Assembly: GCF_041886205.1 (NCBI RefSeq)
Contig: NZ_CP169029.1
DNA from: Escherichia coli
GTDB lineage: Bacteria > Pseudomonadota > Gammaproteobacteria > Enterobacterales > Enterobacteriaceae
Reading direction: 5' to 3' (one strand)
DNA length: 64,000 nucleotides
The position numbers are program-made. Of the stretch, positions 12,701-15,700 are shown one piece after another. The number at the start of each line of letters is the position of its first letter. Position 1 is the first letter of the stretch.

Positions 12701-15700
12701 CAACGGAGGCTAATGGCATGAAATTGACGCTGAAAAACCTTAGCATGGCGATCATGATGAGTGGAATGATCATGGGAAGCAGTGCAATGGCGGCGGACAG
12801 CAACGAAAAAATAGTCATCGCCCATCGCGGTGCCAGTGGATATTTGCCGGAGCATACGCTGCCAGCAAAAGCGATGGCGTATGCGCAGGGAGCGGATTAT
12901 CTGGAACAGGATTTGGTGATGACCAAAGACGACCATCTGGTTGTCCTGCATGACCATTATCTCGATCGTGTTACTGATGTTGCCGATCGTTTCCCGGATC
13001 GGGCGCGCAAAGACGGTCGTTACTACGCGATAGATTTCACGCTGGATGAAATTAAGTCGCTGAAATTTACCGAAGGTTTCGATATTGAAAACGGTAAAAA
13101 AGTGCAGACTTATCCGGGGCGTTTCCCAATGGGTAAGTCCGACTTCCGGGTGCACACCTTTGAAGAAGAGATTGAATTTGTTCAGGGGTTAAATCACTCA
13201 ACCGGAAAAAATATCGGTATCTATCCAGAAATTAAAGCGCCGTGGTTCCATCATCAGGAAGGGAAGGATATTGCGGCAAAAACGCTGGAAGTGCTGAAGA
13301 AATATGGTTACACCGGTAAGGACGACAAAGTTTATTTGCAATGTTTTGATGCTGATGAGCTGAAGCGTATTAAGAATGAGCTGGAACCTAAAATGGGCAT
13401 GGATCTCAATTTGGTACAGCTGATTGCCTATACCGACTGGAATGAAACGCAGCAGAAACAGCCGGACGGAAGCTGGGTTAATTACAACTACGACTGGATG
13501 TTTAAGCCGGGTGCTATGAAACAGGTGGCGGAATATGCTGATGGTATTGGCCCGGATTACCATATGTTGATTGAGGAAACATCGCAGCCGGGTAATATCA
13601 AACTCACTGGCATGGTGCAAGATGCTCAGCAGAATAAACTGGTAGTGCATCCTTATACCGTGCGGTCAGATAAACTGCCTGAATACACTACTGATGTGAA
13701 TCAGTTATATGATGCTCTGTATAACAAAGCGGGTGTAAATGGGCTATTTACTGATTTCCCTGATAAGGCAGTAAAATTTCTTAATAAAGAGTAATGCTAC
13801 TGCAGGATGGCGTTCATGCGCCATCCTCTGCTAAAACGAAATAATGCTTCTACCGGTTATTCTATTCATTAACCGGTGCATCCTGTTAAAAAAGATGCCA
13901 ACATATTTGCGTAAAACTCATTCGTTAAGAAAGCTAACACTGGGCATTGTTATTCCTTAAACAGTATGAATTGGGTTCAATAATAAATTTTATTGCAGTT
14001 TATACTGTAAAGTATTATTCGTATTTCGGAAAAGTAAAGAAAATATTAATGTATCTTATTAATTTATCATATTGTTCTTGAGTGAATGCTGTTTGCACAC
14101 CTTCAGGACAATATTCACCAGTAATAACCAGTTGTCCATTGCTGTGTTGTACCATTAAACCTTTTTTTTCCTTTGGATCTTCAAACTTAGAATTATCAAA
14201 CGTGAAGATGTTATTTTCCTGTTTTGAGTAAGCAAAGAAATCTCGTGTATAGCTGAAACTATCATTTATTAATGGTGCTAACTTTTTGTCGGCGATATCG
14301 ATAAGCTCACCACTTAATTTATTGATGTATTTCATTTGATTCAATTTTTTCTGCGCTTGTACAATTTGCTCGTAGGTATTTTTAATTTTTTTAGAAGAAT
14401 TCTTGAATATATCATAGCGTTCCTCGGAGGATGTGTATTTGTACCCTTCTGTATTTTTCTCAGAATGTAATAGCAGGTCTGTATATTCTTTTTGTTTGCT
14501 GTGAAGTTGACTTTTAATACTTTCCTCACTGCTGATCTTATGATGTTTATCAGAGTCGTTTGTTTTTGAAATGTCTTTTTCTGTCAGTGTCTGGTCCGTG
14601 TTGTGGATATTTTCTTTTGCAACATGCTCATTGATGATGTTAATTGCAGCTTCATATTCATTTAAGTTTATTGTTCTTTCTGAAAGAAACCCTTCTTTGC
14701 TTTCGATACTCAAAACACCTTCGTTGTTTTCACCTCGGGTAAAGGTAAGGGTATAGGGTTCATAATCCGCTGCAAATTCATTTTTATACGTTATGACATG
14801 TTCGACAAAATGTCTTATTGGTACGAAACCATAACTGTGAACGTCAATTTCTTGGGTCTTGATGCTATCAATTGCATCTGAGGCTTTCGTGAAAAAAGCC
14901 AATAAATTAGCTATGTTGTCTGCTGAGGTTGATAACCCGTATCTACTTTGAGATATTTTTAGAAACTCATCGCAAAAAATCTCAAGTTTCGCGGTTTGTT
15001 GTGATTCTTTGTAAACTTCTACTGGTTGCAATTTATTATTTTGTAAAAGATTACAGCGAGATAAGTGAATAGATGTATTTGGCATAAATGATTCCTTGTA
15101 ATGTGAGTTAACAAGATACAATTTAATCTTTGCAGAATATATTCACTATCAAATTTAGCTCATTTTATTACGAAGACCTTTACGCATGTTAGAAAGTATC
15201 ATTATTGTTAATAAACACGGTAATAATTAACAAACAGATGTTTATAACTTCCCTGACAAGTTATTAGGTAACCCACTTGAAGATTGAGAATGGCTTCAGA
15301 GTAAACTGTGTACTGTTCGCCGGAGTGTCATTACTCTCAACAATCGGTTTTGACAGTGAGTCGGGCGCTTCATACCGGTTTCTACCTGGAGTCATTGTCA
15401 CTTCCCTAAACTGGATAAATATATATCGCTAATTCACAACGTGGACCAAAATCAGATGAAAACGCATTATTACGCATGGTAAAGCCTACAGGCCAACTAA
15501 GTGTGGCTAATCAGGCAATCTTACATTTGTCATCAATCTCATGTCTCACATCAAATTTTTCCACTCACCACGAGTTGTTCCGTACACGTTTGTAGTAAAA
15601 ACAGTGGACTGCCTTCTACCGGCTTTTCTTTAGCCAACAACGAAATCTGTCGATAGAAGGTTGGTTCGAGAGGAACGGAACACAATTCACCTGCAATGGT

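What the first reader, a model, noticed from the sequence alone, without database searches (positions are those of the whole stretch)
14015..15121. Low-GC orphan gene of unrecognisable family between glpQ and a LysR/MFS pair
The single 356-368 aa ORF (minus strand) has a composition clearly different from its neighbours, roughly 30-35% GC by eye against about 50% around it. It has a credible RBS (AAGGAA) and start, no signal peptide or TM segment, and a Lys/Glu/Ser-rich, possibly coiled-coil central region. I cannot place it in any family and see no recognisable enzymatic motif. Horizontally acquired single genes of this kind in otherwise core context are often phage-defence, toxin or effector-like functions. 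It is the only gene in the window that I cannot match to a named E. coli protein.
Basis: partly seen in the sequence, partly recalled or inferred. Interest (0 to 1): 0.72.

Follow-up and report, generated by a model that had tools for sequence, protein, structure and literature searches.

The report
E. coli-only orphan gene, drifting neutrally
This is a real but ordinary "orphan" gene: a foreign, AT-rich, single-gene insertion found in about a fifth of E. coli strains. It has no relatives anywhere else, shows no detectable selection on its protein sequence, and gives no sign of being a defence, toxin or effector gene.

The parts
13828..15542 (.). 1715-bp AT-rich insertion (GC 0.338) carrying the orphan gene. 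It sits between the glpQ terminator hairpin and the LysR stop codon. The boundary is ambiguous by 1 nt, and there is no target-site duplication, terminal inverted repeat or mobility gene.
   Evidence: Empty-site E. coli loci L007 and L008 and E. albertii L019 read ...CGCCATCCTG|TCTCAC... continuously, while the window has the insert between CATCCT and GTCTCAC. blastn and tblastn of the cassette against the outgroup loci find nothing.
14015..15085 (-). [not shown]
   Evidence: Tags were deduced from the neighbours. No family match.
15092..15097 (-). Ribosome-binding site AAGGAA, 6 nt upstream of the ATG at 15085-15083. Both are invariant in 16 alleles.
14486..14620 (-). Hypervariable patch (aa 156-200). 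33% of sites are variable and pi is 0.115, against 7-11% and 0.02-0.03 in the rest of the CDS. Both pS and pN are raised. It overlaps the predicted unstructured linker.
14459..14488 (-). Interval bounded by the two single-base indels that the O157 lineages carry (-1 at 14488, +1 at 14459). They recode about 10 codons and restore the frame. NCBI's reference protein carries this recoded stretch, so intact alleles such as the window's are labelled 'frameshifted'. Strain L028 has only the -1 and is truly truncated.
15086..15542 (-). Upstream non-coding part of the insert, presumed to hold the promoter and 5'UTR. No strong sigma-70 consensus or terminator was found, so read-through from the LysR gene is possible (inference). 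It contains a 43-codon ORF (15395-15264) whose frame is not conserved.
13800..13827 (.). Ancestral hairpin (CTGCAGGATGGCG...CGCCATCCT) between the convergent glpQ and LysR genes. It now lies downstream of the orphan and is its probable terminator (inference).
   Evidence: Sequence. The same hairpin is present in E. albertii and in E. coli empty sites.

Best explanation
The feature is a lineage-restricted ORFan delivered by one old illegitimate insertion. A 1715-bp AT-rich fragment of unknown foreign origin landed between the glpQ terminator hairpin and the stop codon of an ancestral LysR-family gene, early in the E. coli lineage including cryptic clade I (shown). It carries one genuine protein-coding gene with its own RBS and start. 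The product is a 41-kDa soluble acidic alpha/beta protein with no homologue anywhere (shown). Since arrival the insertion has persisted as a presence/absence polymorphism shuffled by homologous recombination (inferred from the four-way combinations with the LysR/MFS deletion and from clade-I-like alleles inside E. coli). Within E. coli the protein sequence now accumulates changes at the neutral rate. The gene is being lost piecemeal through homopolymer slippage, IS1 insertion and replacement by the empty allele (shown). My reading is that the product has no function that E. coli selects for, or only a marginal conditional one. Its expression is probably low or H-NS-silenced, as is usual for DNA this AT-rich (inferred, not tested). 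The frame is still open in most carriers because total divergence is small (about 0.1 substitutions per site over the tree), perhaps helped by weak selection against truncated products.
For: Real gene: a 375-codon stop-free run against a maximum of 184 in 2000 shuffles, and an RBS and ATG invariant in 16 alleles. Orphan: no hits in Pfam, NCBIfam, PADLOC, PHROGs or PDB. Only E. coli proteins at 85% identity or more appeared among 5.8 billion clusters. The exhaustive phmmer scan of 1.84 billion representatives returned only fragments of the same gene. The scan of 100,044 species genomes found one locus, an evidently mis-binned E. coli contig. Phage, plasmid and viral-contig searches were negative. 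Insertion polarity. Age: pairwise dS of 0.03-0.16 is similar to glpQ and inaA, and a copy exists in clade I strain TW10509. Neutral drift: on the DNA-sampled set, event-based counts are 24 synonymous and 71 nonsynonymous against a neutral expectation of 27 and 66. Omega is 1.2 on that set and 0.8 with all alleles, against 0.07 for glpQ (p=3e-39) and 0.14 for inaA (p=6e-15) by the same method. Variable sites are spread almost evenly over the codon positions (58:41:48). Decay: present in 1052 of 5426 genomes. Of 13 DNA-sampled carriers, 2 are disrupted by IS1 and 1 has a true frameshift. TW10509 is frameshifted at a T6 run.
Against: No allele has a nonsense substitution. Zero were observed against 3.4 expected in the unbiased set (P=0.03) and against 6.7 expected with all alleles (P=0.001, though part of that set was chosen as full-length). 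The O157 lineage repaired a -1 frameshift with a +1 only 29 nt downstream, which hints at selection for a full-length product. Coding and proximal upstream DNA are about half as variable as the outer non-coding ends of the insert. Omega near 1 can also arise from a mixture of constrained and diversifying sites. Expression, H-NS binding and any phenotype are untested.
Confidence: 0.58

Rival explanations
1. It is a functional conflict gene, such as a new single-gene anti-phage defence, a toxin or immunity protein, or a type III secretion substrate. Its omega near 1 would reflect purifying plus diversifying selection, and its patchy distribution would reflect balancing selection.
For: Foreign AT-rich single gene with presence/absence polymorphism. 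The frame is kept open with no nonsense mutations (P=0.03 to 0.001), and the O157 frameshift is compensated. There is a hypervariable patch. The first 22 residues are rich in Ser, Thr, Asn and Gln and lack acidic residues, as in many type III secretion signals; this is my own reading of the sequence and has low specificity.
Against: No PADLOC or PHROGs hit and no known enzymatic or effector domain. It is never beside defence genes, prophages or mobile elements, and all copies sit at one core locus. In the hypervariable patch pS is raised as much as pN, so the patch is not evidence of positive selection. Outside the patch, variable residues per 30-aa window are close to Poisson. About a quarter of sampled carriers are disrupted. 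The gene occurs in strains with and without the LEE island.
Confidence: 0.2
2. [not shown]
Against: About 340 genomes keep the orphan although the LysR N-terminus and the MFS gene are deleted, and about 510 keep LysR/MFS without the orphan, so the two are not co-inherited. The OI-97 deletion studied in that paper did not include this gene, and its phenotype was attributed to z3495 alone. Omega is near 1.
Confidence: 0.15
3. It is not a protein-coding gene at all, either a chance ORF or a gene born de novo inside E. coli from non-coding DNA.
For: No homologues anywhere, omega near 1, and AF2 finds no confident fold.
Against: A 356-codon frame in 33% GC DNA is far outside chance (maximum 184 codons in 2000 shuffles). 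The RBS and start are conserved. The whole 1.7 kb is absent from the ancestral junction in outgroups, so there was no local non-coding precursor.
Confidence: 0.04

Closest known systems
AT-rich, fast-evolving lineage-restricted ORFans of E. coli (the class described by Daubin and Ochman in 2004, recalled from my own knowledge; reviewed in PMC12315717, Genome Res 2025, of which I saw only the title and abstract)
   Same: Restricted to one species complex, much lower GC than the host, dN/dS far higher than in neighbouring core genes, no detectable homologues, patchy distribution and ongoing inactivation.
   Different: At 356 aa it is much longer than typical ORFans. It is not inside a prophage or a recognisable island. 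The insertion point and its polarity are resolved to the nucleotide here.
EHEC O-islands next to it: OI-97 (z3494 MFS and z3495 LysR; Wang et al. 2024, PMC10819331)
   Same: Same chromosomal interval between glpQ and inaA. Both are absent from K-12 and so are counted as O157-specific sequence.
   Different: OI-97 genes have syntenic orthologues in E. albertii, Salmonella and Citrobacter, so they are ancestral and were deleted in K-12. The orphan is a true insertion with no orthologues. The orphan was not part of the deletion studied and has no reported phenotype.
Single-gene anti-phage defence or abortive-infection genes
   Same: Single AT-rich accessory gene with presence/absence polymorphism and no housekeeping role.
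   Different: No match to any PADLOC model, no nuclease, NTPase, TIR, SIR2 or membrane domain, not in a defence island, not mobile, and no sign of positive selection.
Non-LEE type III effectors of EHEC and EPEC
   Same: Low GC, soluble, polar N-terminus without acidic residues, and presence in O157:H7.
   Different: Not carried on a prophage or integrative element, no similarity to any effector family in Pfam or the PDB, and present in strains from non-pathogenic settings, such as the bear faecal isolate identical to the window. Secretion is untested.

Membership tests
Any Pfam, NCBIfam or PDB-represented protein family | Significant profile or sequence match | tested here: not met
   Pfam best i-Evalue 0.43. 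NCBIfam returned no families at E<=1. PDB phmmer best E was 0.11, and the profile search of the allele alignment returned no hits at E<=10.
Known anti-phage defence systems (PADLOC-DB 2.0) | Match to a defence-protein model | tested here: not met
   No families at E<=1.
Known anti-phage defence systems | Location in a defence island, or next to mobile elements or other defence genes | tested here: not met
   All loci examined show glpQ-orphan-(LysR-MFS or their remnants)-inaA. The only mobile elements seen are IS1 copies that disrupt or truncate the locus.
Known anti-phage defence systems | Protects against phage when expressed | not testable with these tools
   Needs plaque assays.
Phage-derived gene (PHROGs, INPHARED, IMG/VR) | Homologue in a phage or viral contig | tested here: not met
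   PHROGs best E was 0.37. tblastn against 50,697 phage records gave no match. The IMG/VR peptide-pattern scan confirmed no relative.
Type III secretion effector | Similarity to a known effector family, or location on an effector-carrying prophage or island | tested here: not met
   No domain hits and a core-locus context.
Type III secretion effector | T3SS-dependent secretion or translocation | not testable with these tools
   Only a compositional resemblance of residues 1-22, which is my own reading of the sequence.
Toxin-antitoxin module | Tightly linked small partner gene with a conserved frame | tested here: not met
   The only nearby small ORF (15395-15264, 43 codons) ends 178 nt upstream of the orphan's start. 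Its frame is broken in allele L017, and its few nucleotide differences are mostly nonsynonymous.
Horizontally acquired ORFan (lineage-restricted gene) | No homologue outside a narrow lineage | tested here: met
   All true hits are E. coli or clade I at the same locus.
Horizontally acquired ORFan | Absent from the orthologous site in outgroups, with atypical composition | tested here: met
   E. albertii, Salmonella and Citrobacter lack it at an otherwise syntenic junction. GC is 0.331 against 0.516.
Horizontally acquired ORFan | Elevated dN/dS relative to core genes | tested here: met
   Omega 0.8-1.2 against 0.07 and 0.14. NG86 pairwise values are 0.47-1.40, against 0.01-0.13 for glpQ and mostly 0.02-0.23 for inaA.
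Pseudogene in the window's own copy (as PGAP labels the identical strain) | Frame disrupted relative to the ancestral gene | tested here: not met
   The window copy is an uninterrupted 356-codon frame. The 'frameshifted' flag arises because the reference protein is the O157 allele with a compensated -1/+1 pair.

The most novel reading that the evidence does not exclude
The orphan encodes a protein of a previously unseen family that E. coli keeps for a conflict or host-interaction role. It could be a new single-gene phage-defence or abortive-infection factor, or a secreted substrate of the LEE or ETT2 type III systems. The frame would be preserved by selection, while the surface and the central linker diversify.
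Probability: 0.12. Interest if true: 0.65.

Novelty: new member of a known kind. Interest (0 to 1): 0.25.

Why it matters
As it stands, it matters little. It is one more uncharacterised, apparently decaying ORFan in the E. coli accessory genome, already present in databases as a hypothetical protein. There are three modest points of value. First, it is a clean case of an old single-gene insertion whose site, polarity and later drift can be read to the nucleotide, which is useful for the debate on where bacterial ORFans come from. Second, NCBI's pipeline mislabels intact alleles as frameshifted, because its reference protein is the recoded O157 allele. Third, the neighbouring 'O island 97' regulator, published as laterally acquired, is ancestral enterobacterial synteny that K-12 has lost. 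If the gene did turn out to have a phenotype, it would define a new protein family with no relatives among about 15 billion sequences.

Tried and rejected
- **Structure prediction.** AF2 on the 9-allele alignment gave pLDDT 40.8, and on residues 1-162 gave 38.7. Both models are unusable. Foldseek against the PDB gave best E 0.15 and query-normalised TM of 0.18 or less. The scattered weak hits to alpha-beta-beta-beta-alpha folds (SRP9/14, dsRBD) are not significant, and I do not rely on them.
- **Internal duplication.** A beta-beta-beta-alpha module seemed to occur twice (aa 104-162 and 284-356). BLASTP gave E=12 and hhalign gave probability 0.5% over 12 columns, so I rejected it.
- **Marginal phmmer hit P0035 (E=5e-4).** It is an error-ridden translation of the same gene, containing an out-of-frame string of it. 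P0023 is a chimeric assembly.
- **'Collinsella' MAG locus.** It is 92% identical with the same flanking genes, so it is a mis-binned E. coli contig.
- **43-codon upstream ORF.** Its relatives are only E. coli alleles and its frame is not conserved, so it is probably not a gene.
- **Separately conserved non-coding element upstream.** The idea disappeared with 16 alleles: 7.6% variable sites against 7-11% in the CDS, p=0.49.
- **Rfam.** No credible hit.
- **Promoter and terminator scan.** Nothing on the coding strand upstream.
- **Positive selection in the hypervariable patch.** Rejected, because pS is raised as much as pN.
- **NG86 dN/dS of about 0.55.** This was first read as weak constraint. 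After allowing for the transition bias it is not distinguishable from 1.

Full report

Yes. The mechanical ORF list shows one long minus-strand ORF at 14015..15121 (368 aa from TTG), with nothing comparable on the other frames. The credible start is the ATG at 15085, giving 356 aa. AAGGAA lies 6 nt upstream at 15097-15092, and both signals are identical in all 16 alleles I aligned. NCBI's pipeline uses the same start.

The CDS is 33.1% GC (GC3 30.5%) in a window averaging 51.6%. It is the minimum of all 1071-bp windows in the 64 kb and the only region below 36%. The immediate neighbours are somewhat below the mean too (glpQ 45%, LysR 44%, MFS 48%), so 'about 50% around it' is approximate.

The stop-free run of 375 codons is far outside what shuffled cassette sequence gives (mean 80, maximum 184 in 2000 shuffles). 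The protein is soluble, with a maximum 19-residue hydropathy of 0.72 and no hydrophobic N-terminus. It is acidic (pI 5.65) and rich in K, E, S, I and N.

**2. What is it, and where else is it?**

The window is 100% identical over this stretch to E. coli strain wlxctx60, and the locus reads glpABC-glpT-glpQ-[orphan]-LysR-MFS-inaA-yfaE-nrdBA.

The orphan DNA occurs in 1052 of 5426 complete E. coli genomes. It is always chromosomal, always at this locus, and 94-100% identical.

Every family search was negative:
- NCBIfam, PADLOC and PHROGs
- Pfam
- PDB sequences, with both the single protein and a profile of the allele alignment

The word-indexed search of 5.8 billion clusters returned only E. 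coli proteins at 85% identity or more. The exhaustive phmmer scan of 1.84 billion representatives returned only fragments of the same gene. Its one marginal hit (P0035) is an error-ridden translation of this very gene.

A peptide-pattern scan of one genome for each of 100,044 species found a single locus. It is a 3.5-kb contig binned into a 'Collinsella' MAG, 92% identical and with E. coli flanks, so it is contamination. tblastn against phages found nothing. Against plasmids it hit only a 4.9-Mb record, evidently a chromosome. The IMG/VR scan confirmed no relative.

AlphaFold2 gave pLDDT 40.8 for the full length and 38.7 for residues 1-162, and Foldseek gave nothing significant. The two runs agree only on secondary structure:
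- helices at about 21-105
- three strands plus a helix at 112-160
- an unstructured stretch at 161-181, followed in the full-length run by long helices at 182-269
- a strand-rich C-terminal part ending in a helix

**3. Inserted or ancestral?**

Some E. coli genomes have LysR+MFS with only 41 bp between glpQ and LysR.

The LysR protein has orthologues in E. albertii (90%), Salmonella enterica (81%) and Citrobacter (77%). In all three the locus is nrdAB-yfaE-MFS-LysR-glpQ-glpT-glpA, with LysR abutting glpQ and no trace of the orphan by tblastn or sensitive blastn.

The E. coli empty junction is collinear with the E. albertii junction: the hairpin is followed directly by the LysR stop codon. The window has 1715 bp (13828-15542, GC 33.8%) between ...CGCCATCCT and GTCTCAC.... 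There is no target duplication, terminal repeat, integrase or transposase.

So the orphan cassette is an insertion by an unidentified, non-transposon route. The LysR/MFS pair ('O island 97') is ancestral and was deleted in K-12, where yfaH is the remnant.

Four configurations coexist:

| Configuration | Complete genomes |
|---|---|
| Orphan present | 1052 |
| LysR+MFS largely intact | 1222 |
| Both present | 710 |

About 340 genomes therefore have the orphan without an intact LysR/MFS pair, and about 510 have LysR/MFS without the orphan. A K-12-like remnant is the commonest state, and some genomes have the whole interval deleted. That four-way pattern implies recombination between filled and empty alleles.

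**4. How old, and under what selection?**

Pairwise dS among alleles (0.03-0.16) is in the range of the flanking glpQ and inaA genes. A frameshifted copy exists in cryptic clade I strain TW10509. The insertion is therefore old, not a recent arrival.

NG86 gave dN/dS of 0.47-1.40, against 0.01-0.13 for glpQ and mostly 0.02-0.23 for inaA. Because NG86 ignores the strong transition bias, I also counted substitution events by parsimony on a UPGMA tree. I compared them with a simulation using the observed transition fraction.

On alleles sampled purely by DNA match, there are 24 synonymous and 71 nonsynonymous events against a neutral expectation of 27 and 66, giving omega 1.2 (p=0.83 for omega below 1). 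With all 14 alleles, omega is 0.8 (p=0.13-0.19). The same method gives 0.07 for glpQ (p=3e-39) and 0.14 for inaA (p=6e-15).

Variable sites are spread almost evenly over codon positions (58:41:48). Outside one patch, variable residues per 30-aa window are close to Poisson.

Hence there is no detectable constraint on the amino-acid sequence.

The only signs of selection concern the frame. No allele carries a nonsense substitution: 3.4 were expected in the unbiased set (P=0.03) and 6.7 with all alleles (P=0.001, but part of that set was chosen as full-length). The O157 lineages also carry a -1 at 14488 repaired by a +1 at 14459.

Against that, of 13 carriers chosen by DNA match alone, 10 have an intact frame, 1 has only the -1 and is truncated, and 2 are disrupted by IS1. 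TW10509 has a +1 in a T6 run.

**5. An odd detail.**

Codons 156-200 (14620-14486) are hypervariable: 33% variable sites and pi 0.115, against 7-11% and 0.02-0.03 elsewhere. These are substitutions, not frameshift products. pS (0.35-0.46) is raised as much as pN. This is not a signature of positive selection. I cannot decide between a mutational hotspot, old haplotypes, or import from an unseen divergent homologue.

**6. Mechanism I commit to.**

An old foreign single-gene insertion encodes a genuine but now effectively unconstrained protein. It persists as a recombining presence/absence polymorphism and decays by slippage at homopolymers, IS1 insertion and replacement by the empty allele.

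Expression is probably weak or H-NS-silenced. Any transcription may come partly from read-through out of the LysR gene, because the insert separated LysR from its hairpin. Both points are inference.

I put this at about 0.58. The rivals are:

| Rival | Confidence |
|---|---|
| Conflict or host-interaction function, with mixed selection | 0.20 |
| Condition-specific non-conflict function tied to the LysR regulator | 0.15 |
| Non-coding, or born de novo | 0.04 |

**7. Comparison with the known.**

It behaves like the classic AT-rich, fast-evolving, lineage-restricted ORFans of E. coli. It is not a member of any defined protein family, defence system, phage family, effector family or toxin-antitoxin module. 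Each of these was tested and not met, apart from the functional assays that cannot be done here.

**8. Verdict.**

The 'defence, toxin or effector' part has no positive support and is somewhat disfavoured. It is an ordinary kind of thing, documented here in unusual detail, so interest is low to moderate.

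Noticed in passing
window 15551-17771 (LysR 15551-16429 minus strand, MFS 16581-17771 plus strand); loci L019, L020, L021: The LysR/MFS pair, published as 'O island 97' of EHEC and described as laterally acquired (PMC10819331), has syntenic orthologues between yfaE and glpQ in E. albertii, Salmonella enterica and Citrobacter. It is ancestral enterobacterial DNA that K-12 lost by deletion, leaving the yfaH remnant, and is not an acquired island.
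   Followed up: yes
window 14015-15085; loci L001, L003, L004, L018, L022-L025, L027: NCBI's pipeline flags intact 356-codon alleles as 'frameshifted' pseudogenes, including the copy identical to the window. The cause is that its reference protein (WP_001301786.1, O157:H7) carries a compensated -1/+1 recoding of about 10 codons. The label is an annotation artefact.
   Followed up: yes
window 14486-14620: A 135-nt hypervariable patch inside the orphan CDS, with both synonymous and nonsynonymous divergence raised about five-fold. The cause is unexplained.
   Followed up: partly
window 17850-18500 (inaA); loci L019-L021: inaA lies between yfaE and the MFS gene in E. coli but is absent from that position in the E. 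albertii, Salmonella and Citrobacter loci examined. There, yfaE and the MFS gene are only 1-216 bp apart. inaA may itself be an Escherichia coli-lineage insertion or relocation here.
   Followed up: no
loci L004, L025, L027 (LysR); L002 (glpQ): Neighbouring genes also decay in some lineages. The LysR gene carries an internal stop in at least three sampled strains, and glpQ is annotated with an internal stop in O157:H7 strain ECP19-2498.
   Followed up: no
locus L009 (E. coli strain ESDR8) and about 100 other genomes: A second, very divergent LysR/MFS haplotype occurs in about 102 complete genomes. It is about 78% identical to the window in the LysR gene, with a different glpQ-LysR spacer hairpin and no orphan. 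This suggests introgression from another Escherichia lineage.
   Followed up: no
locus L006 (JAIJJM010000334.1, 'MAG: Collinsella sp.'): A 3.5-kb contig assigned to a Collinsella metagenome-assembled genome carries this E. coli locus, with the orphan at 92% amino-acid identity next to the end of glpQ. It is evidently binning contamination in a GTDB representative genome.
   Followed up: partly
window 15264-15395 minus strand: A 43-codon ORF with a plausible RBS lies upstream of the orphan and is called as a gene in several public assemblies. Its reading frame is broken in allele L017 and its few differences are mostly nonsynonymous, so it is probably not coding.
   Followed up: yes
loci L005, L014, L018: IS1 copies recur at this locus in different positions: inside the orphan CDS (about window 14312-14324), replacing the orphan's 5' part together with LysR and part of the MFS gene, and truncating glpQ in strain LHM10-1. 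The AT-rich insert and its surroundings seem to be a preferred IS1 target.
   Followed up: partly
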